Shown: piece after piece, positions 13,010 through 39,642 of the stretch
Position numbering within the stretch: the stretch's first letter is position 1
Layout of the letters: each line of letters begins with the position of its first letter
DNA from: Candidatus Fermentibacteraceae bacterium
Lineage (GTDB): Bacteria > Fermentibacterota > Fermentibacteria > Fermentibacterales > JCC-6
Reading direction: 5' to 3'
DNA length: 39,949 bases
Assembly (NCBI GenBank): GCA_030596465.1
Contig: JAUVJW010000002.1
Span: 1 to 39,949, forward strand
Position numbers and translations under genes: made by a program
The notes under the pieces: model-generated
The model's database searches: none
Told to the model about the DNA's origin: nothing
What the model saw: only the letters and a program-made list of their open reading frames with translations

Positions 13010-13725
13010 CTTGATATCCCTTGCCAGCTTCTCAATCTGAAAGCAACCAACTGCCTGAACATCTCATAGATAGGACCGATTTTTACAAACGCAATAAATC
13101 CGCTTCTTGCACTTTCAAAAGAAACTGTTCCGGCACGCCTGTTGTAGTGACTCACCGGTAACTGTTTAACCCTGTAGCCCATATCACGAGCTAAAGTAAG
13201 GATTTCAAAGTCAATCACTCCACATGTGGATTCAGGTCTGACATCTTTGAAAATCGATGATCTGTACAGCTTGAAAGATGAATCTACATCTTTGAAGCCT
13301 CTGAGAAAAAGCATAAGTGTCAGTGTGTTCCATAGCAACGAATAGCCGAGACGCATACCGGGATCTTTTCGGTTCCTTCTGAAGGCGGATACAATATCGG
13401 CGCTCTTGCGTCTTTCCCATACAAGATCAAGTTCCTCGAGATCGAACTGACCATCGCAATCAGTGTAGAATATCCACTCTTTCTTTGATTGCTCTATTCC
13501 TGTTCTCACCGCCCTGCCGAATCCAAGATTGTTCCGGTGTGATATCAGTCTTATTCGGGAATCATTTTTCGACATTGATCTGGCTACTGATGCTGTACTA
13601 TCGGTAGAGCCATCATCTACTACTAGAATTTCCCAATTCTTTCCCACAACCCTGTCCAGTGCTTTTCTGGCACTTGAAACCATGTATTCAACATTTTCTT
13701 CCTCGTTGAATGCAGGAAAAAACAA
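13006..13725 (-). CDS. glycosyltransferase family 2, polyprenol-phosphate glycosyltransferase type (DPM1/ArnC/GtrB/CsbB-like)
   Basis: 239-aa ORF with a TTG start preceded by GAGGGA. Motifs FPAFNEEEN...ILVVDDGSTDST...NLGFGRAV...YTDCDGQFDLEEL...DVDSSFKLYR are typical of the soluble-domain polyprenol-P sugar synthases. It is the first gene of the overlapping string. Confidence 0.75.
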   Translation of the reverse strand: MFFPAFNEEENVEYMVSSARKALDRVVGKNWEILVVDDGSTDSTASVARSMSKNDSRIRLISHRNNLGFGRAVRTGIEQSKKEWIFYTDCDGQFDLEELDLVWERRKSADIVSAFRRNRKDPGMRLGYSLLWNTLTLMLFLRGFKDVDSSFKLYRSSIFKDVRPESTCGVIDFEILTLARDMGYRVKQLPVSHYNRRAGTVSFESARSGFIAFVKIGPIYEMFRQLVAFRLRSWQGISR

Positions 13726-21696: not shown

Positions 21697-22629
21697 TGTT
21701 ACAGAATTTCCATTTGTCACAAGTGCCTGTTCACAATCCTCCGAGAGAACAACGAACGGGGTTTTCCCAAACTCATCCGCCCTCCAGGCAATTTCTCCGT
21801 TTGCCAGACATACCTGAATACCGGCGGATGGACATACTGCGTACACACAGGATACTTCACTGTCTGACGCGGCTGAAATCGGTGTTTCAGGGAAAGTGAA
21901 CATTACCTGAATCATAAGATCAGCAGGAGAACAAACGGCCACTTCGTTCCAGGTATCAGTTGAGAAAATAAGATTTTCATTCCCTGCTCCCGCCATGAAT
22001 ATCAAAGAGCCATTCACCTTTTCCGCTGCAACTTCAGAGAACGATGAAATTGAAAGAGAGATTATTGTTCCGTCCTCGTACCCCAGGGAAATTAACCCGG
22101 GGAATCCCTGAATGCATGTGATTCCTGTGTCTTCCGGAGTGTAGTTATCTATCAGGGTCAGGTCTGTTCCGCTGTAAAGAGCAAGTGAACCATCTTCCAG
22201 AAGAACAATAGGATCATTGCCGCAGACCGTTATGGCTTCGCCCACTCCCGGTAACTCTCTGGAAGCTGTCACAGCAAAACCTTCAATACAGACAAGCTGG
22301 TCGGAATAGACCACGAAAGCCTTCGAATCATGACCTGCGTCAAGACCTGTAATTTCACCGTCAATCGCCGTTTTTCCGTGTATTCTGCCGTGGCGAAGTT
22401 CCATGTGGTAAAGCGTGTCACCTGAAGCTATCAGCCCATAGTTACCTGCCCCGGAAAACACGGGAGGCACAGTAACAGTGGAGGGGAAAGAAGCTTCCCC
22501 CTCCTTGTATGTCGGGAATGTAACCGTGTCCTCTGCTCCCAGCATGCATGCGGCAAATGGGAGCAGTGAGAAAAGTAGAATAAGCTTTGTGTTAGCGGAC
22601 AACGGCCATTTTCCTTGTGAAAGCGGCAT
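21682..22629 (-). CDS. lipoprotein of unknown function, repeat-rich (possibly beta-propeller-like)
   Basis: 315-aa ORF with lipobox-like LLPFAAC. An alternative TTG start at 22602 would give MSANTKLILLFSLLPFAAC and cut the overlap with the C25 gene from 38 to 11 nt. The 3' end overlaps the convergent PDZ gene by 15 nt. Confidence 0.55.
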   Translation of the reverse strand: MPLSQGKWPLSANTKLILLFSLLPFAACMLGAEDTVTFPTYKEGEASFPSTVTVPPVFSGAGNYGLIASGDTLYHMELRHGRIHGKTAIDGEITGLDAGHDSKAFVVYSDQLVCIEGFAVTASRELPGVGEAITVCGNDPIVLLEDGSLALYSGTDLTLIDNYTPEDTGITCIQGFPGLISLGYEDGTIISLSISSFSEVAAEKVNGSLIFMAGAGNENLIFSTDTWNEVAVCSPADLMIQVMFTFPETPISAASDSEVSCVYAVCPSAGIQVCLANGEIAWRADEFGKTPFVVLSEDCEQALVTNGNSVTLLLK

Positions 22630-24814
22630 CTTCCGTCTGCATGATTACAAAGTAAATACCCGGGTTCAGCTCTGAAGCGTCAAGTGTTATTGATCCTGCC
22701 CCGGACGATATCTGACCATCCTGAACCGTATCGACAACTCTGCCCGCGATGTCCAGGACGCTGATGTTCACATAACCATTTACAGGAGCGATAAAGGAGA
22801 TATTCGCCATACCGCTGACAGGGCTGGGTGTTACCGGGAAAAGTTCCGGATTGAATGTCTCGCCACCCTCTATACCCGTTGTAACAACATCAATGGTTCC
22901 TGTTACAGATGCGTAGTTGTGTAACCTTGCTCCATAGTAGAGATCCTTGTCCTCAAGTGCAGTGAAATTCAGCCATACTTCGCCTGAGCTGTTTGTGATC
23001 TGCTGCTCATAGAAAGACTCTGTACAGGAAGAGTGGTTACCGATACCATCAGTGATGGTAACAACCACTCCTTCCACAGGAGAGCCTCCTGATGTTATGG
23101 TAGTGTAAAGAGTATTCGGACCAATATTCAAAGCTGTCGGAACATCAAAATTCATTGCGAATGGGGCACCACTCACATCACTGTTTGGAATGTCCATGGA
23201 TGGATCGCCAAACCAGTGGTACATTCTGGAGTTATTAACTCCCCCGGCACCCTGAGTCTGAATGATGTCGGCCTGAGATGCGGCAAACATTTCTCCGGCA
23301 CAGGTATTCCCCTCGTCGAAAATCTCCCAGAAAAGTACCCTCTGCATTCTGTTGTTGACAGCGGTTAAAGAAGGAGCACTTGCACCAATATTACCGCTGG
23401 CTCCTTTATCGAGAGCATCCATCCAGCTTTCAGACAGACAGTTGTAGGAAAGATCATGTGTACCATTGTTGCATGCGATGTTGAAAACAATGGGAAAATA
23501 AGTGTTGGTCAGATCATAAATGGCACCCGCGTTCCAGCTGCCGGTCCACTGCCAGGTAGTGATTGATCCGTGCCCTCTGTAGTTAACAATTCCAACACCG
23601 TTGTTGATTGCCGCTGAGACATCATCAGGGGTTCCACCCTCTGGCGGATACACTGTCTCAAAAACAATATCAGCCAGATCATAATCCCATGTTCTTACAG
23701 CTTCGCTGTTTGCTGTGTACTTCCCCGGGTATTCCTCCTGGTGCGCCGCGAGAACAGCACTTGCCGGAAGAGAGGGCTGTCCGGTTTCTCCGGCATAGGT
23801 AGTGTAAGACATAGCTTTCGCGGTCTGATTTTCAAGCTGAGTGTAATTGCCCGGGAACCTTCCTACAGCGATGTCAGGAAGGTTATCCGAGTCCAGGCAC
23901 TCATAATAATAATCTCCCACAAAAGAACCGTAATTCTTCGACTCAAGCTGCTGATAGCGAGCGGGGATCAGTGCAAATCTTGTAATACCTTCCTGATATA
24001 CACCACTGATAGCACCTTTTATGGCATAACTGGTAGTTCCGCATTCCATCTCTATTATGTTTACATGATGCCCGAGAGAATTGACCATCGCAAGAAATGG
24101 TGTAACCGATTCCAGATTCTCCGGCGGAACCACACAGATGTAAACATCATCATCCATGGACACAGGAGAGGAATCAACCATGATGTTCAGTGCGTCATAG
24201 TTCACAATTCTTGAGCGATGCATACTGGCTATCTCAGGTCTCACAGAAACCTGATAACCTCTGTTTCCCTGGAAATCAATTCTGGCGGTTAAGGAAGACG
24301 CCACCCGAAATTCACCGGTTGAGGCATTCCAGGTAAACGGGTTCATCTGAAGAACAACAGTGTTTACACCTGCCCAGCTGCCCTGCTGGAAAAGGTTGAC
24401 AGTGTTTTGCGGGTAAACACCCTGAAGATTGGTGGAAAGATCCACGAAAAAGAAAGGCTCTACCGCATCATCTGTACGGAGAGGTTGAACGGGATACGGT
24501 GTTCCGATTCCCGCTGAAGCCCAGTCCTCATCAAGCAGGGAAACTGAAGGGGTAGTACCTTCCGGAAAACCCACAACAACAGATATCATGGGAAGCTCAG
24601 GGCTTCCAACAGGAGCATCCATGTCCCAGCCATGTCCGGCGACATTCAGACGGGAATACCGGGAAAACTGCTCCAGATTGTAACCTGAAAGATGAATTTG
24701 AATGACCGCGTGATTCTCGTCCGCCTCAATTACTGTTACCTCAGGAGCAGAAGGACAGTTTCCCCCAGGAGAAACCCAGGATCCAAGAATCGAAAGAATT
24801 ATAACCATACCCAT
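22592..24814 (-). CDS. peptidase family C25 (gingipain-like cysteine protease) with T9SS C-terminal sorting domain
   Basis: The ORF track gives 22592..24856. The ATG at 24814 (MGMVIILSILGS) lies 8 nt after GGAGG. C25 motifs are GDYYYECLDSDNLPDIAVGRFPG, catalytic-type VNYRGHGS and FNIACNNG. The C-terminal tail NISVLDIAGRVV...GIYFVIMQTEDAAFTRKMAVVR resembles the Por secretion tail. Confidence 0.8.
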   Translation of the reverse strand: MGMVIILSILGSWVSPGGNCPSAPEVTVIEADENHAVIQIHLSGYNLEQFSRYSRLNVAGHGWDMDAPVGSPELPMISVVVGFPEGTTPSVSLLDEDWASAGIGTPYPVQPLRTDDAVEPFFFVDLSTNLQGVYPQNTVNLFQQGSWAGVNTVVLQMNPFTWNASTGEFRVASSLTARIDFQGNRGYQVSVRPEIASMHRSRIVNYDALNIMVDSSPVSMDDDVYICVVPPENLESVTPFLAMVNSLGHHVNIIEMECGTTSYAIKGAISGVYQEGITRFALIPARYQQLESKNYGSFVGDYYYECLDSDNLPDIAVGRFPGNYTQLENQTAKAMSYTTYAGETGQPSLPASAVLAAHQEEYPGKYTANSEAVRTWDYDLADIVFETVYPPEGGTPDDVSAAINNGVGIVNYRGHGSITTWQWTGSWNAGAIYDLTNTYFPIVFNIACNNGTHDLSYNCLSESWMDALDKGASGNIGASAPSLTAVNNRMQRVLFWEIFDEGNTCAGEMFAASQADIIQTQGAGGVNNSRMYHWFGDPSMDIPNSDVSGAPFAMNFDVPTALNIGPNTLYTTITSGGSPVEGVVVTITDGIGNHSSCTESFYEQQITNSSGEVWLNFTALEDKDLYYGARLHNYASVTGTIDVVTTGIEGGETFNPELFPVTPSPVSGMANISFIAPVNGYVNISVLDIAGRVVDTVQDGQISSGAGSITLDASELNPGIYFVIMQTEDAAFTRKMAVVR

Positions 24815-24861
24815 CTGAACAACCTCCATATAATATTTTTGAAAACAGGATTGCAACTAAC

Positions 24862-24950: not shown

Positions 24951-27506
24951 TCATTTCTTCTCCGAAGCAAATGCTCTTTTTACCCGGGTCAGAAACATTT
25001 TTCTTCTTATCGGTTTTCTTATGTAATCAAGCGCGCCCAGTTCATATCCTCTTTCTTCCTTGTCCATGCTGTCATTGCCTGTCAGAAAGATCAGAGGCGT
25101 ATCCAGATTTTTGCTTTTCAGTGCCTGGAGCATTGTAAACCCATCCAGCCCGGGCATCTCTATGTCAGATAATACAAGATCGTAGTTGCTTGTTCTAAGG
25201 GTAACTATGGCTTCCACTCCATCTGTTGCCTGATCAACATCGTAACCGGCGGTTTCCAGAAGTATCGAAGCAAGATTTCTGAAATCCTCATCGTCATCAA
25301 CAAGAAGTATCCTTTTCTTCCTGTCTTTATCGTTGTCCAGACCTCTGGACTCCAGTTCGTTATCTGTGCGTCCGGTAAGTCTCAGTTCTTCCAGCAGAAC
25401 ATGTCTATACACATCATCAAGAGCGAGAAGCCCCATTCTTACCTTCATTATGGCATGATCGCTTATGAGAAAAACCCCGGCTTTCTCCTGAAGCTCTCTC
25501 CTCATTACCGGAACCGACTCCGCGTGTTTAATAATTTCAGTTACGGCAGGATTAAACCTCATCAGCTCATAAACACCCTGTCTACCGGCATATCCGGTAA
25601 AATTGCATTTGGGACACCCCTCAGGATGAGGCAACTCCTTTGGAATGTCATCTGTAAAGGGAAGCAGCTTTTTTCTTTCTTCGGGGGTAACAGGCTTCAT
25701 CCTTCTGCATCTCTGACACAGGCTCTTCAGAAGTCTTTGAGCCACAATACAAAGCAGATTATCAGCGGAATCATCTTTTGATATTCCCAGCCGGGAAAGT
25801 CGGAACAAGGCAGTGGAGGTATTTGAACTATGCAGAGTAGCCATGGTCAAGTGACCCGTACTGGCAAGATCGATACAGGTTTTTGCACTGAAAGCATCTC
25901 TGATCTCACCCAGGTAAACAATGTCGGGATCCTGACGAACCGCTGACTTCAGGAGGGCTTCAAATGTAACGCCTGCCTTCTCGTTAACCTGCTGCTGATT
26001 GGCATAGGGAATTCTGTACTCCACCGGATCCTCAATGGTCATAAGACTTCTGCTTTTGATATCCAGGTGGGATATCATACTGTACAGAGTTGTTGTTTTT
26101 CCACTTCCTGTAGGACCAACAACTATAATAGCACCGCTGGTCTGACTGGACACCTCGTAAAGATCTCCGGACTGTTCTTCGGTCATACCAAGCTCGGTGA
26201 GTTCACGAGGTTTCGCGTACAGATCAAGCATTCGCACAATAAGGCTTTCACCCTGTGGAGTGGAGGTTGTAGCAAAACGCATTTTGAAGGGTTTTCCACC
26301 GATATTCGCCTCTGCCGTACCATCCTGAGGTTTTCTTCTCTCGGCAATATCCATACCGCCAAGAACTTTGAAACGGCTGATAAGAACTGCACCTGTCCTT
26401 TTCTTCAGTGTGAACATATCCTTCATGTCTCCGTCAACACGAAACCTCACAAGAACCTTATCAGGCTTAGGCTCGATATGAATATCGCTTGCTCTTTCGG
26501 CTACGGCAGAGAATAAAATACTGTCGGAAATGTACCTGATAGGGAACTTCCTGATATCATCTTCCGATGGCTTCTCCATAATTTCAAGAGAGCTGCTTAT
26601 ATCGGCGGCATCATCTTCAGGCGTACTTTTTTCTTCGTCCTCCTCCCCTATATCGGCAAATGCGGAGTCCGGGCCGTGTGATTCCTCTTTGCGCAACAGA
26701 GCATCAATGCAGTCAGGGCAGGTTATTCCCAGTAATGGTGCTCTACCCGTGAGAGATTCCAGCATCTCAATAAGCTGTGGTTCATAAGGATTGGAGACAA
26801 CAAAGCGAAACTCATCCTTTTCCCTGAGTGCAAGAACTCTGTGTGCTTTGGAAAATGCCGCCGGCAGCATATCACTCTCCACGGATTCGGGGTCAATGTA
26901 GGGATAATTCGGAAGATGAAGATAAGATGAAAGAAGCTTTGCTGTCTCAATGCTGTCAAGACCAATATCAAGTGTTTTCTCGTAAATATCTCTGGGCTGC
27001 GCCAAACTGAGTGTGGCGGTATCCTCCCGGGACAGGCTTGAATTATCTCTCAAATACTCAATAAAACCCTGAATATCCTGTAGCCGCGTGGAAGGTGTCG
27101 GATTATCAAGTCTGCCCCATTTCTCTGATCTGTCAAGAACTTTCTTCACCTTGGCGCGGAGTGTTTTTCTGTTCAGCTCTGATTTAGGTACAAAATCCGC
27201 TACGCCTGCGTTAAGGGCATCCCGTCTTGTTTCATCATCAGCCCTGCTGGTTATCATGATTACCGGAATTCTTGAAAGAACTCTATCGGACTGAAGACTC
27301 GCGCAAAATTCAAGCCCGTTCATTCCCGGCATGAGAAGATCAAGAAGGATAACGCTGATTACGCTGCTCTGCAGCATCCCCATAGCAGTGGCCGCACTCT
27401 CCGCAGTTTCAGTTTCATAACCTGCTTTCCGGAGGATATGGGATAGCAACAGTCTGGTATCCTCATCATCATCTATAATGAGGATTTTTTTATTCTTCGT
27501 CGACAT
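24951..27506 (-). CDS. REC - T2SSE_N-like - GspE/PilB-family secretion ATPase - REC fusion protein
   Basis: 851-aa ORF. N-terminal REC is ILIIDDDEDT...LLDLLMPGMNG...DFVPK. ATPase core has Walker A GPTGSGKTTT, Asp box LMTIEDPVEY, Walker B DPDIVYLGEIRD, His box TGHLTMATLHSSN and tetra-Cys CQRC..CPKC. C-terminal REC is ILLVDDDEDF...VLSDIEMPGLDG...DYIRKP. Confidence 0.85.
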   Translation of the reverse strand: MSTKNKKILIIDDDEDTRLLLSHILRKAGYETETAESAATAMGMLQSSVISVILLDLLMPGMNGLEFCASLQSDRVLSRIPVIMITSRADDETRRDALNAGVADFVPKSELNRKTLRAKVKKVLDRSEKWGRLDNPTPSTRLQDIQGFIEYLRDNSSLSREDTATLSLAQPRDIYEKTLDIGLDSIETAKLLSSYLHLPNYPYIDPESVESDMLPAAFSKAHRVLALREKDEFRFVVSNPYEPQLIEMLESLTGRAPLLGITCPDCIDALLRKEESHGPDSAFADIGEEDEEKSTPEDDAADISSSLEIMEKPSEDDIRKFPIRYISDSILFSAVAERASDIHIEPKPDKVLVRFRVDGDMKDMFTLKKRTGAVLISRFKVLGGMDIAERRKPQDGTAEANIGGKPFKMRFATTSTPQGESLIVRMLDLYAKPRELTELGMTEEQSGDLYEVSSQTSGAIIVVGPTGSGKTTTLYSMISHLDIKSRSLMTIEDPVEYRIPYANQQQVNEKAGVTFEALLKSAVRQDPDIVYLGEIRDAFSAKTCIDLASTGHLTMATLHSSNTSTALFRLSRLGISKDDSADNLLCIVAQRLLKSLCQRCRRMKPVTPEERKKLLPFTDDIPKELPHPEGCPKCNFTGYAGRQGVYELMRFNPAVTEIIKHAESVPVMRRELQEKAGVFLISDHAIMKVRMGLLALDDVYRHVLLEELRLTGRTDNELESRGLDNDKDRKKRILLVDDDEDFRNLASILLETAGYDVDQATDGVEAIVTLRTSNYDLVLSDIEMPGLDGFTMLQALKSKNLDTPLIFLTGNDSMDKEERGYELGALDYIRKPIRRKMFLTRVKRAFASEKK

Positions 27507-30500
27507 ATTCTATTCGAACGGTGTTAAGGTATTTTTCGAGTTCATCAATCCCCAAAAGAATTTCAGAGCCATCCCGAGATTTTGCCGCAATCTCCATGAC
27601 AGCCCCCAGGTGTGTTATTTTATCAAACCCGTAACCACCCCCGGAACCCTTCATGCTGTGTGCAAGTCTCTGGGCCTCTGAATAGTCATCATCCTGAACA
27701 AGTTGTCTGATTACAGCAACATCTGTTCGTCTGTTTTCTAAATACCCCGGGATCAGAGACTCAAGATCCATTGGAACAAGAGCAGTAGGACCATGAACAT
27801 TTTCAGCAGACTCAAGCATCTCAACTGAAGTTCCCTTTCTGTCAGTTGACAATTCCGGTATACCTTCACGAGGGCCCATAATTTTCAACAAATCATCAAG
27901 TTTTTCCAACAGACTCTTTTTTCTCACAGGCTTTGAAATATGGATATCACAACCGGCATCAATGCACTTCTGCACCTCTTCTTGAAGCGCATGGGCGGTA
28001 AGAGCCGCAATAGGTATATGTTCGCTCATGGAAATTGATTCGTGGGCTCTTATGGATCTTGTTGCCTCATATCCGTCTATAACAGGCATCTGCATATCCA
28101 TCAGTATGAGATCAAACTTACTCTTCAAGTAGCAATCAAGAGCTTCCTGTCCGTTAACTGCCACGGTGATCTCCCAGGGAAAAGCCTCTGTGTATTTCAT
28201 AATAAGGAATCTGTTATCCGGTGAATCTTCTGCCAGTAGAACCGAAAGTTTCCTTTTCTCTATATCATACCCGGCTTTTATATGTAATATATCTGATTCT
28301 TCAGCCGTAACTGTGCCGTCAAGAACATTCATTATACGCTTTTTGAGATCATCTCTTCGCACCGGTTTGAATATGAAATGGTCAATGCCTGACAATCTGC
28401 ATTTGTCGATATGAGCATTGCTGCTTTCGCGGGTGAGCATCATTATTACATTGCTGATTATGATCTTATCCCTCTTCATGGAATCAACGATCTCAAACCC
28501 ATTCTTATCAGGCAAAATGTGGTCAAGAAAAATTACATCGTATTCTGTATCCCTTACCATTCCAGGCACAGGAATGCCACAATCAGCCAGATCAACAGAA
28601 GCGCCAAGGTTCTCAAGAATCTCCCTGAGTATTATCCTGTTATTCCTGTTATTATCCGCAACAAGAATACGCTTACCTGAGAGGTTCACGGGCTGAACCG
28701 GGAGGTGATCAAATGAATCAATTTCAGGCAGATCGCAGAAAAACGCAAATGAACTTCCCGAACCAACTTTACTGGTAACAGATATCTCCCCACCCATGAG
28801 ATCAACAAGTCTGGTACAGATGGCAAGCCCAAGCCCGGTACCTCCGTATCTTCTGGTGTGTGATGAATCCGCCTGTGTAAAACTCATAAATATTGCTTCT
28901 ACCTTGCCCTCTGGAATGCCAATTCCTGTATCGGTAACTGAAAAATTTATTCTGTCCTTGTCGAAAGGTTTAACTGCTACAGCAATTTCTCCTTCGGAAG
29001 TAAATTTAATTGCATTGCCAACAAGGTTAATAAGCACCTGCTTTAACCTGGAAGGATCACCCAATACCCATCCGGGTGTCTCCGGGTGGATTCGGCAATT
29101 CAGTTCAAGCCCCTTTTCATGGGCTCTCAGTGCAAGAGTTTCACAGGTATTTTCAATCTCCTCATAAAGATCAAATGGGATTTTTTCAAGCTCAATCTTT
29201 CCAGCCTCAACTTTGGATATATCAAGAATATCATTTATCAGATCAAGAAGGTTATCACTTGCGTTTTTACTTACTCTTAAATAACTCTTCTGTACGGATG
29301 TCAGGTCTGTTTCCAGCATTAAATCTGTAGTGCCGATAATAGCATTCAAAGGTGTTCTTATCTCATGACTCATATTTGCCAGAAACTCTGACTTTGTTCT
29401 GGTAGCGTTCAGGGCACCCTCACGAGCCTCGATCAGTTCCAGTTCAATTCTCTTTCTTTCAGAAATATCTCTTAATATTCCAGTTGCCTGCCATCCGCCG
29501 TTCAGAAAGAAAGACGAAACAGAAAGTTCAACAGGGAACATCGTTCCATTCTTGCGTCTTCCTTCCATTTCAACCACACGCCCAACCATCATGCCTTCAC
29601 CGGTTTTTCTGAACTTGTTGAATCCCATTTCAATCATTTCCCAGTATAGTTCAGGTGCAATAAGCTTGTGAAGCATCTTTCCAATGGTTTCTGATCTACG
29701 GTATCCGAACATCATTTCTGCCGAGGAATTAAAAAAGGTAACACGGCTATCGGAATCAATGATGATCACGGCATCCTGGGCTGATTCTGTAATTGCCTTG
29801 AATTTAATCTCATTCTCTCCGAGTAATTTCAGAATTGAATCTCGATCAGAGAGATCTGTGTAGACTCCCACTGCTCCCTGATTTTCTCCGTCAATAACTA
29901 TTGGAGCAACCGATACAAAAACACTTTTTTCCTGTTTGCTTTTCCCCCGCCTTGTGCATTCAAGCCCTCGAATTACATGCCCGTCTACTATGGCCTTCGA
30001 GGATATCTCATTCTTCCCTGTTTCCGTGCCAACCAGGTTATCAAGCAGCTGTCCCATGGCTTCATCCACTGTCCAGCCAAACAATTCAACGGCTTCTCTG
30101 TTCCAGCTGGTAACCCTGCCCAGTGCGTCAATTGTAACCACCGCGTCGGGCACGCTTTCAACTACTTCACGGAAATACAGACTCTGCTTGTGTATCTCCT
30201 TCGCCAGTCTTTGTTCTTCACTGATATCAGAAATAATCCCCTCGTAGTATCGAGGATTTCCCTGGCGGTCAAATACGACATGCATTGAACCACGGGCAGT
30301 AAATACCCCTTCATTCTTTCTCTTCAAATCAATTACAAAATCTCTCACCCGTCCATTTTTTCGCAGAGCGAGCATTAACTGATCCCCCTGGGCTTCAGTG
30401 ACATAATAATTAGTCAGGGATGTACCAATAACTTCTTCACGCGTAAAACCACTGAACTCAAATATTGAAGGTGTTACATTAATAACTACTCCGGTCATGG

Positions 30501-30870
30501 AAATCTTACAGTAAAGATCATCCATCTCGTTGAAAATCCTGCGGAGTTCACCACTATCTGAATCTCCGGCAACACTGTTGATGTTAAATGAAACAATTTT
30601 ACAGGTAATACCTTTTATATCCGCGAGCTGAGTTTGTACTTCTGTGCCCGATTTCAACAGTTCCTTGAGCACACTCTCAACGGTATCTCCTAAAATATCT
30701 GATGATTCCCTGTTTAAAGCATTGCAAAGCAATTCGTTAACCTTGATAATCCTGTCATTCTCGCCTGACGCTATTAATGCGCATATACCACCACCACTGA
30801 GAATCTGCAAAAGCGATTCATGTACAGAACTCTCCAGTACTGAATTGTTCTCTGGTTCTGATATGGACAT
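27490..30870 (-). CDS. cytoplasmic hybrid sensor kinase: multiple PAS - HisKA - HATPase - REC - REC - Hpt
   Basis: 1126-aa ORF with no TM segment seen. There are several PAS-like repeats (for example VTFFNSSAEMMFGYRRSE). H-box FLANMSHEIRTPLNAIIG, G2 GGTGLGLAI. Two REC domains (VIFLDHILPD and LILMDMQMPVIDG). C-terminal Hpt AHSMKGSGGGYGF. Confidence 0.85.
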   Translation of the reverse strand: MSISEPENNSVLESSVHESLLQILSGGGICALIASGENDRIIKVNELLCNALNRESSDILGDTVESVLKELLKSGTEVQTQLADIKGITCKIVSFNINSVAGDSDSGELRRIFNEMDDLYCKISMTGVVINVTPSIFEFSGFTREEVIGTSLTNYYVTEAQGDQLMLALRKNGRVRDFVIDLKRKNEGVFTARGSMHVVFDRQGNPRYYEGIISDISEEQRLAKEIHKQSLYFREVVESVPDAVVTIDALGRVTSWNREAVELFGWTVDEAMGQLLDNLVGTETGKNEISSKAIVDGHVIRGLECTRRGKSKQEKSVFVSVAPIVIDGENQGAVGVYTDLSDRDSILKLLGENEIKFKAITESAQDAVIIIDSDSRVTFFNSSAEMMFGYRRSETIGKMLHKLIAPELYWEMIEMGFNKFRKTGEGMMVGRVVEMEGRRKNGTMFPVELSVSSFFLNGGWQATGILRDISERKRIELELIEAREGALNATRTKSEFLANMSHEIRTPLNAIIGTTDLMLETDLTSVQKSYLRVSKNASDNLLDLINDILDISKVEAGKIELEKIPFDLYEEIENTCETLALRAHEKGLELNCRIHPETPGWVLGDPSRLKQVLINLVGNAIKFTSEGEIAVAVKPFDKDRINFSVTDTGIGIPEGKVEAIFMSFTQADSSHTRRYGGTGLGLAICTRLVDLMGGEISVTSKVGSGSSFAFFCDLPEIDSFDHLPVQPVNLSGKRILVADNNRNNRIILREILENLGASVDLADCGIPVPGMVRDTEYDVIFLDHILPDKNGFEIVDSMKRDKIIISNVIMMLTRESSNAHIDKCRLSGIDHFIFKPVRRDDLKKRIMNVLDGTVTAEESDILHIKAGYDIEKRKLSVLLAEDSPDNRFLIMKYTEAFPWEITVAVNGQEALDCYLKSKFDLILMDMQMPVIDGYEATRSIRAHESISMSEHIPIAALTAHALQEEVQKCIDAGCDIHISKPVRKKSLLEKLDDLLKIMGPREGIPELSTDRKGTSVEMLESAENVHGPTALVPMDLESLIPGYLENRRTDVAVIRQLVQDDDYSEAQRLAHSMKGSGGGYGFDKITHLGAVMEIAAKSRDGSEILLGIDELEKYLNTVRIEYVDEE

Positions 30871-30873
30871 TAT

Positions 30874-31437
30874 CTATCCTTTTCCGTCTGTATATCCGAT
30901 AGCCTCCTTGACCATTTTCGAAAGAGAGTCTGCACTGAACGGTTTTCGTAAAAAACCTTGAAGTTCAAGGCCGCCAAACCGTCTGCGGATCTCCTCTTCT
31001 CCGTATCCGGTCGTCAGTATAATCCCAAGTTCAGGAGAAGATCGTCTCAGTTGCCTGAATGTCTGCATACCATCAAGTCTCGGCATAACAAGATCAAGAA
31101 TAACACATTTTATGAGATCCCTGTTCTGCTCATAAACCCCGAGGGCCTCGATGCCATCGCAAGCTGTAAGCACCTCGTACCCTTCTCGTTCAAGTATTTG
31201 CTTCCCTATTCTTCGTATAATTTCCTCATCATCTACAAACAACACCGCGGAACCACTACTGGATTGATTCTTTTCCGGGGATAAAACATTAATAACATGT
31301 CGAACCTCCTTCAGCGCCTCAGTAAGCTCGGTACGCATTACTCCCTTGGTCTGAGTAGCTACGAATGCGATTCTTCTTTCCGCTCTTTTCAGTTTCTCCA
31401 GCAAGACTTCCGTGACCAAAAATCCTCCTTCCTGCAA
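30874..31437 (-). CDS. response regulator, REC domain with ~60-aa helical N-terminal extension, no output domain
   Basis: 187-aa ORF. REC motifs VLFVDDEEIIR...VILDLVMPRLDG...ILTTGYG...FLRKPF. The start is uncertain: the track uses TTG at 31437, but GGAAGGAGGA lies inside the ORF just before a TTG at 31419. Confidence 0.75.
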   Translation of the reverse strand: MQEGGFLVTEVLLEKLKRAERRIAFVATQTKGVMRTELTEALKEVRHVINVLSPEKNQSSSGSAVLFVDDEEIIRRIGKQILEREGYEVLTACDGIEALGVYEQNRDLIKCVILDLVMPRLDGMQTFRQLRRSSPELGIILTTGYGEEEIRRRFGGLELQGFLRKPFSADSLSKMVKEAIGYTDGKG

Positions 31438-31487: not shown

Positions 31488-32111
31488 TCACGAAAACTTG
31501 AGGAATGGATTATTCCTCTTTTCTTCTTTCATGGTTGATGATGGTCCGTGTCCTGGAAGAACAACAATTTTATCATCGAAATGTGTTACAATCTTTTCAA
31601 GAGTTGTTCTCATTTCCTCAGGAGAACTCTGTGGCAGATCGGTTCTGCCAATGGATCCGGCAAAAAGCGTATCGCCGGAGAACAACAGACCATGCCCTTC
31701 CAGACATATAGAACCTCTTGAGTGGCCCGGGGTGTGTCTTACATAAAAAGTAAGCATCCCTGCATTTATCCGGTCTCCGTCTTCAAGCAATCTATCCGGT
31801 GGTGGGGGCTGCTGAATTCTGAAACCCCACTGCTCGGAATAAACTGCCGCAGAGGCCATAATCTCCACATCCGCTGAATGTATCATGGTTTGAGGAGCAA
31901 ACCGCCGTATCAGCCCGGCTGCCCCTCCAACATGATCAAAGTGACCATGTGTATAAACAATGATATCTACTCTGGAGAGCCCCTCTTTTATTACAGTGTA
32001 ATCATCACCCGGGTCTATGATAAGCACCGCACCGGTTTCCGGGCATTTCACTATGTAGCAGTTTGTCTGAACCCCGCCTACTACTATTGTTTTCACAATT
32101 GGCTTAATCAC
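31488..32111 (-). CDS. MBL-fold metallo-hydrolase (glyoxalase II-like)
   Basis: 207-aa ORF with HxHxDH motif THGHFDHVGG plus downstream HTPGHS and D/H residues. It overlaps the upstream TPR gene by 8 nt. Confidence 0.85.
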   Translation of the reverse strand: MIKPIVKTIVVGGVQTNCYIVKCPETGAVLIIDPGDDYTVIKEGLSRVDIIVYTHGHFDHVGGAAGLIRRFAPQTMIHSADVEIMASAAVYSEQWGFRIQQPPPPDRLLEDGDRINAGMLTFYVRHTPGHSRGSICLEGHGLLFSGDTLFAGSIGRTDLPQSSPEEMRTTLEKIVTHFDDKIVVLPGHGPSSTMKEEKRNNPFLKFS

Positions 32112-33105
32112 AAACAGCCTCCAGTTCCTGAATTCTTATTCTGATATCGGATGTACCGGCAGTGTCCTGGAGACTTCCCACAAACAATTGATAATTTTCC
32201 AGTGCCCCGGGAAGATCGCCGTACCTGTAAAAACATTCAGCAAGTCCCAGTCTGCTCAGTGGATCACCCGGATTGTTCTCCAGAAGTGATTCAAGTATTA
32301 AAACAGCTTCTTCCTGCCTGCCCTGGGATGAATAAGAAAGGGCAAGGATATTCAAAGCGTCCGGATCGGAAGGTGCTGACGCCAGAACTGACAAAATCTG
32401 TTCCTCGGCTTCAGGGTGTCTGCCGAGAATTCCCAATGTTCTGGCTATCTCAATTTGTGACTGCAGGAAACCGGGATCTATTGCCGTCGCGTCCTGGAAA
32501 AACAGTAGAGCTTCTTCAGGATTTCCGGCCATAAGTGTAATTCTACCACAGTTGTACAGAATGGAGGCATTCCGGGGTTCCCGCCTTAAAGCAGTGTTGA
32601 AACACATGCCTGCGTCCTCATAGCGACCGCTCTCCAGCAAAGCCATTCCGTAGTTATTGAAAGCCAGTCCGTCATCAGGACAAAGCTGAACGGACAAATG
32701 ACCTGTATGAAGAGCCTCAGATAGTCTGCCGGCACCGAGAAGTGCCCCGGTAACATCTGTGAGTACATCAACCCTTGTGGAATCCAGTGCTATAACCTTC
32801 CGGTAAGCGATGACCGCCTCGTCGTACAACCCCAGATCAAGATTTACCGTTCCAAGATTTCTCCAGACATTTGGGTTATCGGGATCCTGAACGGCAACTC
32901 TGATAAGCAACTCCCGGCAGGATACAAGATCACCGTCGCTATACGCTTCCCCTGCAGCAGAAAAGAGAACTGAAGGATCCGGAGTAGCTTCCTGGTTATC
33001 ACCGCAGGAGAAAAGAACAATGCACAACAGAAGAGTCAGGAGTATATTGATAGCTGGATTATATAACTTCGGGAGGTTTTTCTTGTTTACAGTCCTTATT
33101 TTCAT
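32104..33105 (-). CDS. TPR-repeat lipoprotein
   Basis: 333-aa ORF. Signal peptide with lipobox LFSC. Repeated 34-aa TPR-like units (for example AYRKVIALDS, CFNTALRREPRNA, FFQDATAIDPGF). Confidence 0.8.
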   Translation of the reverse strand: MKIRTVNKKNLPKLYNPAINILLTLLLCIVLFSCGDNQEATPDPSVLFSAAGEAYSDGDLVSCRELLIRVAVQDPDNPNVWRNLGTVNLDLGLYDEAVIAYRKVIALDSTRVDVLTDVTGALLGAGRLSEALHTGHLSVQLCPDDGLAFNNYGMALLESGRYEDAGMCFNTALRREPRNASILYNCGRITLMAGNPEEALLFFQDATAIDPGFLQSQIEIARTLGILGRHPEAEEQILSVLASAPSDPDALNILALSYSSQGRQEEAVLILESLLENNPGDPLSRLGLAECFYRYGDLPGALENYQLFVGSLQDTAGTSDIRIRIQELEAVCD

Positions 33106-34213
33106 TCTTTCCTATCCCGTGGATAATTACACGGCAGATCCATACATAATATTTGAACAGTCGGATTCCGCGCTTTCAAGTATCAACACCATTGAATACA
33201 GTTTCACTTTCAGCGGTACAGGAACACTGTCAAACATAATACCTGCACTGGAGGGAATGACATCTCTCGGCTTTCTTCCTGAAACAGATCATCCCCTGAT
33301 GTATCACTCTCTGGAAAGTATGATCAAAGAAGGAGCTATACGGAATATTACAGTACCTTCATCTTTTGTTGCTTCTGTTGATAGCGTTTACTTCGTTGAC
33401 CACGATAAATCCCTTGTATACACTGCTGAATACAACAATACTGCTCATGATATGTTTGATTTTCCACCTGCTTCTGTAATGATGGAGTATGTTGTTTCCA
33501 GCCCTTTTATGGATGAAATACTCGCTGACTCAATTGCTGTACTTTTCCCGGTTGAATTAAACGGTGTTCCCTGCCATGTTTTTCATGTTTTTTATGATGA
33601 TAACGAAAGAACCGAAGCTGTCTGGTTCCTGAGTATGAATGATCTGCTTCCAAGAGCTGTTGAAAGAATAAGCTATTATGGCCCGACATCCGCACCCGGA
33701 GGACAGCTTCTTGAAATCAGTAACCTGAACTTTAACTGCCCGGTGCCATCATCTGCCCTTTTACCGGATAATTACACAGCAGTTCCCTGGCTTTCCCTGC
33801 TGGAACCATCTACGCAGGCACCTTCATTCTTCCTCGCAGATAAAGATGGTTTTGCGAGAAGATCCTCTGACTTTGGAGACAGAACTCTTCTTCTCTGCTT
33901 TTTTGCATCCTGGGATCCTTCTTCCATATCTGCTCTTGGTCTCTTAAAATCAATGACTGATGAGTATCCCGATTTTGTTCAAGCGGTTGGAATTTCGATT
34001 CTGGAAAACACTGATCCGTGGTTCAGGTTGAACTCTCTTGGTATTAATTTCCCTGTTCTTGTGTTTGGAGAGGATGCTGCTGAGGATTATAATGTACATT
34101 CTGTTCCCGCGATATTTCTTATCTCAGGAAACAGAGAAGTCCTCTATTCCTCTCAAACTGTCACGGATGAAACTGTATCGGAAATCAGAAGATTGATTGA
34201 GGAAAACATATAA
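33020..34213 (+). CDS. exported two-domain protein: unassigned ~250-aa N-domain + TlpA/ResA-like thioredoxin fold lacking CXXC
   Basis: 397-aa ORF. The C-terminal RTLLLCFFASWDPSSISAL aligns by eye to the FWASWCPPC region of TlpA-type proteins, with both Cys replaced (WDPS). The N-terminal signal-anchor is MHNRRVRSILIAGLYNFGRFFLFTVLIFIL. The first 86 nt overlap the divergent TPR gene, so the start is uncertain. Confidence 0.6.
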   Translation: MHNRRVRSILIAGLYNFGRFFLFTVLIFILSYPVDNYTADPYIIFEQSDSALSSINTIEYSFTFSGTGTLSNIIPALEGMTSLGFLPETDHPLMYHSLESMIKEGAIRNITVPSSFVASVDSVYFVDHDKSLVYTAEYNNTAHDMFDFPPASVMMEYVVSSPFMDEILADSIAVLFPVELNGVPCHVFHVFYDDNERTEAVWFLSMNDLLPRAVERISYYGPTSAPGGQLLEISNLNFNCPVPSSALLPDNYTAVPWLSLLEPSTQAPSFFLADKDGFARRSSDFGDRTLLLCFFASWDPSSISALGLLKSMTDEYPDFVQAVGISILENTDPWFRLNSLGINFPVLVFGEDAAEDYNVHSVPAIFLISGNREVLYSSQTVTDETVSEIRRLIEENI

Positions 34214-36106: not shown

Positions 36107-37240
36107 TTAGCATTTCTTCAGTGTAACTGTAAAAGTTGATCCAGCATCAGGGGTGCTGTCAACGGTAACTTCTCCACTGTAAAGAGATGCTGTTTTTCTC
36201 ATAATGGAGAGGCCGAGACCACTTCCCAGAATATTTCTTGTTTTGGCGTTCCTGATCCTTACGAACTCACCGAAGAGTTTCTCCACTTCCTCTTCCGACA
36301 TTCCAATTCCTGTATCGGTAACTGCAATTCGAATCTGATCCGGCATATCCAGAACATTTACCGCAACGCTGCCATTGTCTCTGTTGTATTTCACTGCGTT
36401 CGAGATAAGGTTGTTGAATATGATTTCAATTTCCCCGCTGTCAGCGGTAATGACAGCCTTTTCAGAACTGGATTCAAGAGAAATGGTGATGCCCCGTCTG
36501 TCTGCGTCAGGTTTCATCGTTTCCATGCTGTTACGGGCACACTCAAGAACATCAATATCGGAAAGTTCTCTCTTCTTCTGTCCGGATTCAAGTCTCGTTA
36601 GATCAAGCAGGTCATATATGAGTTTCCGCATACCGCCAAGCCGTATAAGGCTTCTTTGCACCACCCTGTCGTGAACATCAGGATCATCCATTCCAATGCC
36701 ATCGCGGAGCAGGTACAAATAGCCTTCAATGGCGCCAAGAGGAGCTTTCAGCTCATGGGCAAGCACACTGATAAACTGAAATCTTACCCTTCTCTTTTCC
36801 CGTTCAAGCTCACGAGCCTGCCTGAGAGCTACCAGATGAGCGGCCGCCTGCCTTACTGATACCTTCAGCTCCGCTGGAGTAAATGGCTTGGGTAAAAAGT
36901 CATAGGCTCCCTGCTTTGTAGCAGCAATTGCCGTCTCTATTGAAGCATATGCGGTTATCATAATCGCCATAAGATCCAGCTCATTTTCATTAATCCAGTG
37001 GAGAACATCTATTCCTGAAATTCCACCCATTTTGTTGTCAAGCAACACAATATCAGGTGAGGATTCCTTCATAAGAAGAATGGCCTCTTCCCCGGAAGCA
37101 GCCTCCGAAACATCCAATTTGACGAGTTCTCCCGTGTCCTTGGTTTCCATCGAGAAATGCCTGAGGGATCGTTTTACCCCCATACGCATCCCTTCCTCGT
37201 CATCAACAATAAGGAGTGAAAGCCGTTTTTCTTCAGCCAT
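36107..37240 (-). CDS. REC-HisKA-HATPase protein (receiver-regulated histidine kinase)
   Basis: The ORF track gives 36107..37255 with a TTG start. The ATG at 37240 (MAEEKRLSLLIVDDEEG) starts 1 nt after the upstream TAA. REC motifs are VLLDNKMGGISG and DFLPKPF. H-box SVLAHELKAPLGAIEG, G2 GSGLGLSI. Confidence 0.85.
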   Translation of the reverse strand: MAEEKRLSLLIVDDEEGMRMGVKRSLRHFSMETKDTGELVKLDVSEAASGEEAILLMKESSPDIVLLDNKMGGISGIDVLHWINENELDLMAIMITAYASIETAIAATKQGAYDFLPKPFTPAELKVSVRQAAAHLVALRQARELEREKRRVRFQFISVLAHELKAPLGAIEGYLYLLRDGIGMDDPDVHDRVVQRSLIRLGGMRKLIYDLLDLTRLESGQKKRELSDIDVLECARNSMETMKPDADRRGITISLESSSEKAVITADSGEIEIIFNNLISNAVKYNRDNGSVAVNVLDMPDQIRIAVTDTGIGMSEEEVEKLFGEFVRIRNAKTRNILGSGLGLSIMRKTASLYSGEVTVDSTPDAGSTFTVTLKKC

Positions 37241-37241
37241 A

Positions 37242-37631
37242 TTACCGGCTCTCAATCTTCTTCAGTTCTTCCTCTATCTGTTCGAACCTTACAGGCTTGG
37301 AAAGAATGGCATCCGCGTTGATCCAGCCGGAGGAATCGTTCCCGCCCGGAAACTCAATACCGGTTTCACCGGTAACATTTGTGACCATGATAACAGTGCA
37401 ATCTGGAAATTTTTTCTTCAGGCGGTATGCAAGCACAAATCCATCATCATCGTTTTCCATCATCAGATCAATAACCGCGATATCCGGTGTGTACGAATCA
37501 AATATCTCCTCGGCTTCCCTTCTTCCAGGAGCTGTTACCACCTCGTATCCCCGGGAAGAAAACATTATTTCAGTTTGCGACAGGAAATCCGGGTCATCGT
37601 CTACAACAAGAACTCTCTTTACATCAGTCAT
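37242..37631 (-). CDS. single-domain response regulator (REC only)
   Basis: 129-aa ORF with motifs VLVVDDDPDF, AVIDLMMENDDDG, IMVTNVTG and ILSKPV. Confidence 0.85.
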   Translation of the reverse strand: MTDVKRVLVVDDDPDFLSQTEIMFSSRGYEVVTAPGRREAEEIFDSYTPDIAVIDLMMENDDDGFVLAYRLKKKFPDCTVIMVTNVTGETGIEFPGGNDSSGWINADAILSKPVRFEQIEEELKKIESR

Positions 37632-39641: not shown

Positions 39642-39642
39642 A

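What the first reader, a model, noticed from the sequence alone, without database searches (positions are those of the whole stretch)
24951..27506. Orphan GspE/PilB-type secretion ATPase sandwiched between two intact receiver domains
Seen: one 851-aa ORF combines four parts.
- An N-terminal REC.
- A T2SSE_N/MshEN-like segment (LSSYLHLPNYPYIDPESVESDMLPAAFSKAHRVLAL).
- A complete ATPase core with Walker A, Asp box, Walker B, His box and a tetra-Cys motif.
- A second REC at the C-terminus.

Both REC domains keep the acidic pocket, the phospho-acceptor Asp, the T/S and the K.

No GspF/PilC platform, pilin, prepilin peptidase, secretin or PilMNOPQ gene occurs anywhere in the 40 kb. Secretion/pilus ATPases are normally regulated by partner proteins or c-di-GMP.

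Direct double-receiver control is unusual and, to my knowledge, uncharacterised. The gene overlaps the preceding Hpt-containing hybrid kinase by 17 nt, which points to a direct phosphorelay onto the ATPase.
Basis: partly seen in the sequence, partly recalled or inferred. Interest (0 to 1): 0.7.

Follow-up and report, generated by a model that had tools for sequence, protein, structure and literature searches.

The report
Phosphorelay-controlled pilus/secretion motor ATPase
This gene encodes a pilus/secretion-type motor ATPase with a phosphorylation-receiver domain fused to each end; it belongs to a widespread but unstudied family that always travels with its own phosphotransfer protein and never with the usual membrane platform gene, so a sensor kinase probably switches the motor directly.

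Summary
ORF 24951-27506 (minus strand, 851 aa) reads REC, four-helix bundle, N1E (MshEN), PilB/GspE ATPase core, REC. Both receivers and every ATPase motif are intact. It overlaps an upstream PAS hybrid kinase with an Hpt domain by 17 nt. The window holds no platform, pilin or secretin gene.

The protein is not a one-off. At least 113 homologues of the same length occur in several phyla; the closest are Candidatus Sabulitectum (Fermentibacterota).

- **Conservation:** the C-terminal receiver is invariant. The N-terminal receiver has decayed in about 12% of members. The c-di-GMP motif of MshEN is absent from all 114.
- **Hpt link:** all 14 complete contexts carry an Hpt. It is fused to the kinase, a separate gene, or fused into the ATPase; a family-specific Hpt model, tested on 11 contexts, matched all 11.
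- **Orphan status:** PilC/GspF lies within 10 kb in 0 of 14 contexts, against 24 of 42 ordinary PilB/GspE loci.
- **Pilin link:** five loci in other lineages carry a Zn-ribbon membrane protein and a pilin-lectin gene downstream.

Best reading: a multistep phosphorelay gates a type IV filament motor whose machinery lies elsewhere. The N-terminal-REC form was catalogued in 2016; I found no functional study. This is a new variant of a known kind, of moderate interest.

The parts
24951..27506 (-). 851-aa REC / four-helix bundle / N1E / T2SSE ATPase / REC protein (the finding)
   Evidence: ORF; Pfam; AF2 model with mean pLDDT 82; Foldseek best matches are PilF, PilB and GspE, with target TM-score about 0.8.
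27147..27488 (-). REC1, aa 7-120. Acidic pocket D12/D13, phospho-acceptor D56, T86, K108.
   Evidence: Pfam Response_reg 94.5 bits. D56 is kept in 100 of 114 family members and is P, S or A in the rest.
26919..27074 (-). Four-helix bundle, aa 145-196. [quoted passage not shown]
   Evidence: AF2 helices at 145-155, 160-167, 171-180 and 185-196. The RLGxx...LxxQ motif is found in 0 of 114 members, even in a loosened form.
26688..26906 (-). N1E / MshEN_C subdomain, aa 201-273. In GspE this is the domain that binds a partner protein.
   Evidence: Pfam MshEN 31.6-34.2 bits against a cutoff of 23.1. The alignment to Geobacter PilB starts at chain residue 90.
26592..26687 (-). Disordered acidic linker, aa 274-305
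   Evidence: AF2 pLDDT below 50 over aa 273-305.
25407..26540 (-). N2E plus C-terminal ATPase core, aa 323-700. Motifs: Walker A 464-472, Asp box 490-497, Walker B 526-537, His box 550-559, Cys4 at 597/600/631/634.
   Evidence: Pfam T2SSE 333.9 bits. The motif residues checked are invariant across 114 members, except His-box H552, which is kept in 111 of 114. PDB best hit is EpsE/GspE at 275 bits.
24981..25310 (-). REC2, aa 733-842. D737/D738, phospho-acceptor D781, T809, K831.
   Evidence: Pfam 100.4 bits. D738, D781 and K831 are invariant and T809 is T or S in all 114 members.
27490..30870 (-). Hybrid histidine kinase: three PAS domains, HisKA (H502), HATPase, REC (D783), REC (D925), Hpt (H1071). 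It overlaps the ATPase start by 17 nt.
   Evidence: Pfam; residues; overlap.
27523..27744 (-). Hpt domain of the kinase, aa 1043-1116, with motif HSMKGSGGGYGF. It is orthologous to the stand-alone Hpt genes that precede the ATPase in other phyla.
   Evidence: A family Hpt model scores 138.8 bits here, matches all 11 family contexts tested (34-161 bits; the low value is L092), and matches none of 77 ordinary PilB loci.
30874..31437 (-). Single-domain receiver protein (187 aa), 3 nt upstream of the kinase gene. Probably part of the same operon, as a phosphate sink or a branch.
   Evidence: Pfam Response_reg 87.1 bits. The gene is conserved in Fermentibacterota loci L001 and L010.

Best explanation
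The gene encodes a PilB/GspE-class hexameric assembly ATPase whose activity, or whose recruitment to its machine, is switched directly by a multistep phosphorelay.

**Proposed path.** The upstream PAS hybrid kinase autophosphorylates on H502. The phosphoryl group passes to its own receiver (D925, possibly D783), then to its Hpt (H1071). From there it passes to the ATPase: D781 in the invariant C-terminal receiver, and probably also D56 in the N-terminal receiver.

**Role of each receiver (inferred).**
- REC1 is joined by a continuous helix to a four-helix bundle and the N1E partner-binding domain. It takes the place held by the c-di-GMP sensor in MshE-type ATPases. It probably controls docking to a membrane partner.
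- REC2 hangs on a short flexible tether from the catalytic domain. It probably controls hexamer state or ATP turnover.

**Partner machinery (inferred).** The platform, pilins and other machine parts are encoded elsewhere in this Fermentibacterota genome.

**What is shown.** The architecture, the intact catalytic and phospho-acceptor residues, the family-wide conservation, the obligate Hpt linkage, and the lack of a nearby platform gene.

**What is inferred.** The direction of phosphotransfer, which receiver does what, and the existence of a distant partner machine.
For: - **Architecture and residues:**
- **ATPase core:** it matches solved PilB, PilF and GspE structures by sequence (275 bits to EpsE) and by fold (target TM-score about 0.8). 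All hallmark residues are invariant across 50 diverse members.
- **A coherent family:** the core model scores 507-690 bits on members and no more than 390 bits on ordinary PilB/GspE.
- **Hpt linkage in all 14 complete contexts:**
  - fused to the kinase in the window, L001, L010 and L092;
  - a separate gene directly upstream in L003, L005, L007, L009, L090, L091, L093 and L095, overlapping the ATPase start by 8-14 nt in six of them;
  - a REC-Hpt protein two genes upstream in L094;
  - fused into the ATPase in L008.
- **REC2 is the constant acceptor:** it is invariant, and the Hpt persists where REC1 has decayed (L092).
- **No c-di-GMP input:** the motif is absent from all 114 members.
- **Link to pilins:** pilin-like N_methyl genes lie directly downstream in L003, L009, L012, L090 and L095.
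- **Precedent in trans:** phosphorylated PixG binds PilB1 (PMC11181946). The tandem-REC regulator DrdR binds PilB and PilT and raises their ATPase activity; only its C-terminal REC is functional (PMC13507683).
- **Type IV pilus genes in the phylum:** Hyd24-12/Fermentibacteria genomes are reported to carry type IV pilus-associated genes and no flagella (PMC5030696).
Against: - No platform (T2SSF), PilM-type or secretin gene lies within 10 kb in any of 14 family contexts. A partner machine is therefore assumed, not seen.
- I could not search the rest of this genome.
- The protein falls below the NCBIfam equivalog cutoffs for GspE (375.8 against 630.25) and for PilB (339.8 against 675.65). It is neither in the strict sense.
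- The AF2 domain arrangement is uncertain (pTM 0.46), so the separate roles of the two receivers are speculative.
- The 14 contexts are not all independent. Three are Fermentibacterota, and L003 and L090 are alike.
- No biochemical data exist for any member.
Confidence: 0.62

Rival explanations
1. The family works without a PilC/GspF platform. It would either drive a minimal system with its own membrane partner, such as the Zn-ribbon/TM protein plus a pilin-lectin seen in other phyla, or, in Fermentibacterota, act as a phosphorelay-driven ATPase output with no filament at all.
For: - PilC lies near 0 of 14 family loci, against 24 of 42 ordinary loci (Fisher p = 5e-4 on 0 of 11).
- A five-gene module (kinase, Hpt, ATPase, Zn-ribbon/TM protein, N_methyl-lectin) recurs in L003, L009, L012, L090 and L095. 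It was also recovered by searching in reverse from the Zn-ribbon protein.
- REC-fused ATPases of Gemmatimonadota are likewise without a nearby PilC (0 of 8).
Against: - The Zn-ribbon/TM protein is rare (13 clusters) and is absent from the window.
- Motor ATPases encoded away from their platform genes are common.
- The retained N1E domain and the fully canonical core argue for a conventional partner.
- No platform-free PilB-type system is known (my own knowledge).
Confidence: 0.2
2. The receivers are not signal inputs to the motor. The protein would mainly serve as a phosphate sink or scaffold in the kinase's network, or one or both receivers are structural pseudo-receivers.
For: - REC1 has decayed in about 12% of members.
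- A further single-domain receiver is encoded next to the kinase (30874-31437).
- In DrdR the N-terminal REC is a pseudo-receiver.
Against: - In REC2, D738, D781 and K831 are invariant and T809 is T or S in all 114 members; acidic-pocket position 737 is D or E in 113 of 114. In this protein REC1 is fully intact too.
- All ATPase motifs are invariant, which a mere sink would not need.
- The Hpt is fused to the ATPase in Elusimicrobia.
Confidence: 0.08
3. It is an ordinary PilB or GspE that picked up receiver-like ends by chance in one genome, or the ORF is an assembly or gene-calling fusion artefact.
For: None beyond the unusual length.
Against: - 113 homologues of 780-1100 aa come from independent assemblies (NCBI, JGI, ENA, Logan), and nearly all cover 97-100% of the query.
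- The family core is distinct from ordinary PilB/GspE.
- Synteny is conserved.
Confidence: 0.02

Closest known systems
PilB / GspE (EpsE) / PilF extension ATPases of type IV pili and type II secretion (Pfam T2SSE; PDB 1P9R, 4KSR, 5TSH, 5IT5)
   Same: - N1E, N2E and C-terminal ATPase domains.
- Walker A, Asp box, Walker B and His box.
- Tetracysteine Zn site.
- Same fold, with target TM-score about 0.8.
   Different: - A receiver is fused to each end.
- It scores below the GspE and PilB equivalog cutoffs.
- It forms a separate clade by core-model score.
- It is never encoded beside a T2SSF platform gene.
MshE-type c-di-GMP-regulated ATPases (MshEN domain; Wang et al. 2016, PMC5013675)
   Same: An N-terminal regulatory module (helical bundle plus N1E) precedes the ATPase, so a small-signal input sits directly on the motor.
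   Different: - The 24-residue RLGxx...LxxQ motifs are absent from all 114 members.
- The input is predicted to be phosphorylation of fused receivers, not binding of c-di-GMP.
REC-MshEN-T2SSE architecture (Geobacter metallireducens Gmet_3473), listed in Supplementary Table 4 of PMC5013675
   Same: An N-terminal receiver fused to an MshEN-T2SSE ATPase. It is listed with no functional reference.
   Different: - That table shows no C-terminal receiver.
- Orthology with this family was not tested.
- The distribution given there is beta-, gamma- and delta-proteobacteria only.
Response regulators that act on PilB in trans: PixG/PixH in Synechocystis (PMC11181946), DrdR in Xanthomonas (PMC13507683), PilG/PilH in Pseudomonas (PMC10519157)
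   Same: - A phosphorylated receiver domain controls the pilus extension motor.
- DrdR has two receivers and only the C-terminal one is always functional. That parallels the invariant REC2 and the dispensable REC1 here.
   Different: - Those regulators are separate proteins fed by CheA-type or orphan kinases.
- Here the receivers are fused in cis and fed through a dedicated Hpt.
NtrC-type REC-AAA+ enhancer-binding proteins (mechanistic analogy, from my own knowledge)
   Same: Receiver phosphorylation gates the assembly or activity of a ring ATPase.
   Different: The ATPase fold (AAA+) and its output (sigma-54 transcription) are unrelated.

Membership tests
PilB/GspE-class (T2SSE) assembly ATPase | T2SSE domain above the Pfam gathering score | tested here: met
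   333.9 bits against a cutoff of 24.9, over aa 323-700.
PilB/GspE-class (T2SSE) assembly ATPase | Walker A, Asp box, Walker B, His box and the tetracysteine Zn motif that separates extension ATPases from PilT | tested here: met
   All are present. The motif residues checked are invariant across 114 members, except His-box H552 (111 of 114).
PilB/GspE-class (T2SSE) assembly ATPase | N1E (T2SSE_N / MshEN_C) domain ahead of the core | tested here: met
   Pfam MshEN 31.6-34.2 bits against a cutoff of 23.1.
GspE proper (TIGR02533) or PilB proper (TIGR02538) | Score above the NCBIfam equivalog cutoff | tested here: not met
   375.8 against 630.25 for GspE; 339.8 against 675.65 for PilB.
Type IV pilus / type II secretion gene cluster | Encoded together with a T2SSF platform, pilins, prepilin peptidase or secretin | tested here: not met
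   None in the 40-kb window. T2SSF is near 0 of 14 family loci, against 24 of 42 ordinary loci.
PilB/GspE-class (T2SSE) assembly ATPase | Hexamer formation and ATP hydrolysis | not testable with these tools
   Needs purified protein.
Response-regulator receiver (PF00072), both ends | HMM score above cutoff, plus the acidic pocket, phospho-acceptor Asp, Thr/Ser and Lys | tested here: met
   - REC1: 94.5 bits, with D12, D13, D56, T86, K108.
- REC2: 100.4 bits, with D737, D738, D781, T809, K831.
Response-regulator receiver (PF00072), both ends | Actual phosphorylation on Asp | not testable with these tools
   Needs a phosphotransfer assay.
Multistep His-Asp-His-Asp phosphorelay | HisKA His, kinase receiver Asp, Hpt His and a terminal receiver Asp are all present and genetically linked | tested here: met
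   H502, D925 (and D783), H1071, and D56/D781. The Hpt-ATPase linkage holds in 14 of 14 contexts, including a fusion.
MshEN c-di-GMP receptor | Tandem 24-residue motifs RLGxx(L/V/I)(L/V/I)xxG(L/V/I)(L/V/I)xxxxLxxxLxxQ | tested here: not met
   0 of 114 members match, strictly or loosely. A four-helix bundle remains in the AF2 model.
REC-MshEN-T2SSE architecture (Gmet_3473 type) | N-terminal REC, then MshEN, then T2SSE | tested here: met
   The domain order matches. The extra C-terminal REC is not in the published list. Orthology was not tested.

The most novel reading that the evidence does not exclude
The REC-ATPase-REC family with its private Hpt could be a self-contained, phosphorelay-driven type IV filament-like device that needs no PilC/GspF platform. 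In some phyla it would work with a Zn-ribbon/TM protein to display a pilin-anchored lectin or hydrolase. In Fermentibacterota only the sensor and motor parts remain, which would imply a motor function independent of the canonical machine.
Probability: 0.15. Interest if true: 0.8.

Novelty: new variant of a known kind. Interest (0 to 1): 0.55.

Why it matters
Known control of pilus and secretion motors works through c-di-GMP or through separate adaptor and regulator proteins.

This family would wire a sensor kinase straight onto the motor through a dedicated Hpt. That makes it a natural 'Rosetta stone' fusion for the receiver-PilB contacts now being found in trans (PixG, DrdR).

The prediction is clean and testable: phosphorylation of D781, and perhaps D56, should switch ATPase activity or docking.

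The family spans many uncultured phyla. Its members are annotated only as 'response regulator', 'TadA' or 'PilB', so these annotations hide a distinct signalling output class.

Tried and rejected
- **Genome-wide scan.** Apparent 'full-length' matches in Gemmatimonadota and CPR phyla turned out to be MshEN-T2SSE-REC proteins, or plain PilB whose receiver-domain matches must lie outside the ATPase ORF. No taxonomic census was possible. I reused those loci as the control set for the PilC test.\n- **Isolated linker/N1E region against PDB.** It gave only chance hits.\n- **Promoter and terminator scan, 22-34.5 kb.** Counts were at or below shuffle expectation, so it was uninformative.\n- **Zn-ribbon/TM partner.** It is absent from the window and rare overall, with 13 clusters. 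It cannot explain the Fermentibacterota gene.\n- **PilC elsewhere in the same genome.** I could not search for it. Contig look-ups reach only 10 kb either side, and the supplement of the Hyd24-12 genome paper is not held.\n- **Literature.** Searches for REC-fused GspE/PilB names, for Gmet_3473 and for 'secretion ATPase' with 'receiver domain' found no functional study. One search was wasted because the term setting was too loose.\n- **c-di-GMP sensing.** Rejected on motif absence.\n- **Assembly artefact.** Rejected on the homologues.
Full report
**1. Observation**

The ORF at 24951-27506 (minus strand) is real. It is 851 aa and starts with ATG. Pfam finds T2SSE at aa 323-700 (333.9 bits), MshEN at aa 201-273 (31.6 bits, cutoff 23.1) and two Response_reg stretches. 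Scanned alone, REC1 scores 94.5 bits and REC2 100.4 bits, against a cutoff of 30.2. The two receivers are 31% identical, so they are not a recent duplication.

The canonical receiver residues are all present:
- REC1: D12, D13, D56, T86, K108.
- REC2: D737, D738, D781, T809, K831.

The ATPase motifs are also all present: Walker A (464-472), Asp box (490-497), Walker B (526-537), His box (550-559) and four Cys (597, 600, 631, 634).

The gene overlaps the stop of the upstream kinase gene (27490-30870) by 17 nt. That kinase has three PAS domains, HisKA, HATPase, two receivers and an Hpt. Its relay residues are H502, D783, D925 and H1071. A 187-aa single receiver (30874-31437) lies 3 nt further upstream.

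**2. The rest of the window**

I scanned 32 candidate ORFs with Pfam: 28 long ones on both strands and the four of the operon. They encode:
- a sigma-54 regulator and kinase pair;
- a glycosyltransferase cluster;
- MutS;
- an ABC exporter;
- an ECF sigma, anti-sigma and PDZ set;
- a C25 peptidase with a T9SS sorting domain, directly downstream of the ATPase;
- a TPR protein, an MBL-fold protein, a NYN-domain protein and an amidase;
- two more kinases.

None is a T2SSF platform, pilin, prepilin peptidase, secretin or PilMNOP protein. A T2SSF model built here found nothing in any frame; one sequence of its seed cluster was verified as Pfam T2SSF at 216 bits. A prepilin-motif scan of all six frames found no candidate. 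The 'orphan' observation holds for the 40 kb.

**3. Origin and family**

The closest homologues (70-89% identity, 845-853 aa) are from Candidatus Sabulitectum and Fermentibacteraceae, in the FCB group.

Beyond these, all 120 listed clusters score at least 694 bits. Most are about 840-900 aa and cover 97-100% of the query at 40-50% identity. Where a source names the organism, it is WOR-3, Thermodesulfobacteriota/Deltaproteobacteria, Elusimicrobia or a Coriobacteriia-labelled MAG. Geobacter and Eubacteriales MAGs add to this.

A core-ATPase model built from the family scores 507-690 bits on members and no more than 390 bits on 77 ordinary PilB/GspE loci. The family is therefore a distinct clade. 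A phmmer search with only the family-specific linker and N1E region (aa 125-275) against 1.84 billion representatives found 94 clusters at 50% identity. In most of them the region starts near residue 145-160, which fits an N-terminal receiver.

**4. Conservation (114 sequences; 50-sequence alignment)**

- REC2: D738, D781 and K831 are invariant, and T809 is T in 112 and S in 2.
- REC1: D56 is kept in 100 of 114 and is P, S or A in the others. T86 and K108 decay in the same subgroup. About 12% of members therefore carry a pseudo-receiver at the N-terminus; this window's protein does not.
- The ATPase motif residues checked and the four Cys are invariant, except His-box H552, which is kept in 111 of 114.
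- So are the N2E hallmark residues: DIH at 341-343, R354 and R356, and P393, D395 and G396 of the PQDG motif.

**5. No c-di-GMP input**

The MshEN c-di-GMP site is a tandem RLGxx...LxxQ motif in the N-terminal four-helix bundle (PMC5013675). None of the 114 members matches it, even loosely.

The AF2 model has mean pLDDT 82 and pTM 0.46. It shows, in order:
- REC1, whose last helix runs on (aa 113-134) into a four-helix bundle (aa 145-196);
- N1E (aa 216-270);
- a disordered acidic linker (aa 273-305);
- N2E and the C-terminal ATPase domain;
- a short disordered tether (aa 718-727);
- REC2.

Foldseek places the core with PilF, PilB and GspE at a target TM-score of about 0.8. The low pTM means the relative positions of the domains are not reliable.

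**6. Genomic context across the family**

I examined 14 complete contexts. Every one has an Hpt:
- fused to the hybrid kinase in the window, L001, L010 and L092;
- a separate 102-127-aa gene directly upstream in L003, L005, L007, L009, L090, L091, L093 and L095, overlapping the ATPase start by 8-14 nt in six of them;
- part of a REC-Hpt protein two genes upstream in L094;
- fused into the ATPase as REC-Hpt-REC-...-REC in L008 (Elusimicrobia).

An Hpt model built from these was tested on the 11 contexts held at that point. It matches all 11 (114-161 bits; 34 bits in L092) and none of the 77 ordinary PilB/GspE loci. All the aligned Hpts keep the phospho-His, and most share the motif H-S-M-K-G-S-G-G-G-Y-G-F. 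The three contexts fetched later show an Hpt by precomputed Pfam. This is strong comparative support for Hpt-to-ATPase phosphotransfer. The persistence of the Hpt where REC1 has decayed points to REC2 as the obligate acceptor.

Sensor inputs vary between contexts: PAS, GAF, H-NOX-associated and CHASE8 domains all occur.

**7. Orphan status is a family trait**

- T2SSF lies within 10 kb in 24 of 42 ordinary loci of at least 15 kb.
- It lies near 0 of 11 family loci (Fisher p = 5e-4).
- It is also absent from the three contexts fetched later, by precomputed Pfam.
- These contexts are not all independent, because three are Fermentibacterota.

**8. A link to pilins in other lineages**

In L003 (WOR-3), L090, L009, L012 and L095 the ATPase is followed by two things. 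The first is a homologous protein of about 156-181 aa with a CxxC...CxxC zinc ribbon, one TM helix and a Cys-rich outer domain. The second is one or two N_methyl prepilin-like genes; in L009, L012 and L095 these carry a 3keto-disac_hyd (lectin/glucanase-like) domain.

A reverse search from the Zn-ribbon protein found only 13 clusters. The one context I could open was again kinase, Hpt, ATPase, Zn-ribbon protein, pilin-lectin. The family therefore acts on pilin-type substrates in at least some lineages. This accessory pair is absent from the window.

**9. Mechanism**

Most likely, with confidence about 0.6, this is a PilB/GspE-class motor gated by a His-Asp-His-Asp relay: H502, then D925, then H1071, then D781 and perhaps D56.

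By position, REC1 with the bundle and N1E would tune partner docking, and REC2 would tune the hexamer or ATP turnover. Both roles are inferences.

Published trans-acting cases make the logic plausible. PixG~P binds PilB1 (PMC11181946). DrdR, a tandem-REC protein with only its C-terminal REC functional, binds PilB and PilT and raises their ATPase activity (PMC13507683).

The main rival, at about 0.2, is a platform-independent function.

**10. Novelty**

The architecture REC-MshEN-T2SSE (Gmet_3473) is listed in Supplementary Table 4 of Wang et al. 2016 with no functional reference. The double-receiver form is not listed there. A 2024 review of PilB regulators does not mention fused receivers. 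No other search found a functional study.

As far as those searches show, these points have not been described:
- the double receiver;
- the loss of the c-di-GMP site;
- the obligate private Hpt;
- the consistent separation from platform genes;
- the Zn-ribbon and pilin-lectin module.

The protein class and the idea that receivers control PilB are both known. I therefore rate it a new variant of a known kind, with interest 0.55.

Noticed in passing
window 37647-39749 (-), with 36107-37255 (-): A 700-aa protein combines an [FeFe]-hydrogenase large-subunit domain and 4Fe-4S domains with HisKA and HATPase. It looks like a sensory-hydrogenase/histidine-kinase fusion. A REC-HisKA-HATPase protein is encoded next to it.
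   Followed up: no
window 22592-24856 (-): A C25 (gingipain-type) peptidase with a T9SS C-terminal sorting domain starts 94 nt downstream of the ATPase on the same strand, with no terminator-like site between them. This synteny is kept in Fermentibacterota loci L001 and L010 but not in other phyla.
   Followed up: partly
L010 13473-13898: In the Ca. Sabulitectum reference MAG, a 141-aa single-TM protein with no Pfam hit is inserted between the ATPase and the C25 peptidase. It is absent from the window and from L001.
   Followed up: partly
L003 12564-13648; L009 12678-14983; L012 1497-2901; L090 12561-13588; L095 10001-11339: A conserved pair lies directly downstream of the family ATPase in other lineages: a Zn-ribbon/TM/Cys-rich protein (motifs CxxCG, CPxSGxxY, CPxPxxH) and a prepilin-like gene that often carries a 3keto-disac_hyd lectin-like domain. 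The Zn-ribbon family is tiny (13 clusters) and has no annotation.
   Followed up: yes
L094 7907-9953: In one lineage a REC-Hpt protein and a REC-GGDEF diguanylate cyclase sit between the CHASE8 kinase and the ATPase. The relay may branch to c-di-GMP synthesis, although the ATPase lacks the c-di-GMP site.
   Followed up: no
L007 1-1434 (-) and 10001-12655 (+): Two paralogues of the REC-MshEN-T2SSE-REC family lie 8.5 kb apart on opposite strands in one MAG.
   Followed up: no
L013, L015, L016, L017, L023, L025, L029, L038: MAGs of Gemmatimonadota and Mariprofundaceae carry a different, shorter ATPase with only a C-terminal receiver (MshEN-T2SSE-REC; core score about 350 bits). None of the 8 has a PilC gene nearby. 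Receiver fusion to these motors seems to have arisen more than once.
   Followed up: partly
L003 6984-7526; L090 6937-7251: An H-NOX (HNOB) haem sensor gene precedes the hybrid kinase of the module in two lineages. This suggests NO or O2 as the input there.
   Followed up: no
window 3265-13725 (-), with 372-3268 (-): A cluster of seven glycosyltransferase genes holds three large ORFs with no Pfam hit (4089-6092, 6089-6868, 10357-12000). A sigma-54 response regulator and a PAS kinase follow directly downstream on the same strand.
   Followed up: no
window 33020-34213 (+) against 32104-33105 (-): The thioredoxin-like ORF as listed overlaps the 5' end of the divergent TPR gene by 86 nt. The homologue in L001 is called at 368 aa, against 397 aa here, so the true start is probably further downstream.
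   Followed up: no
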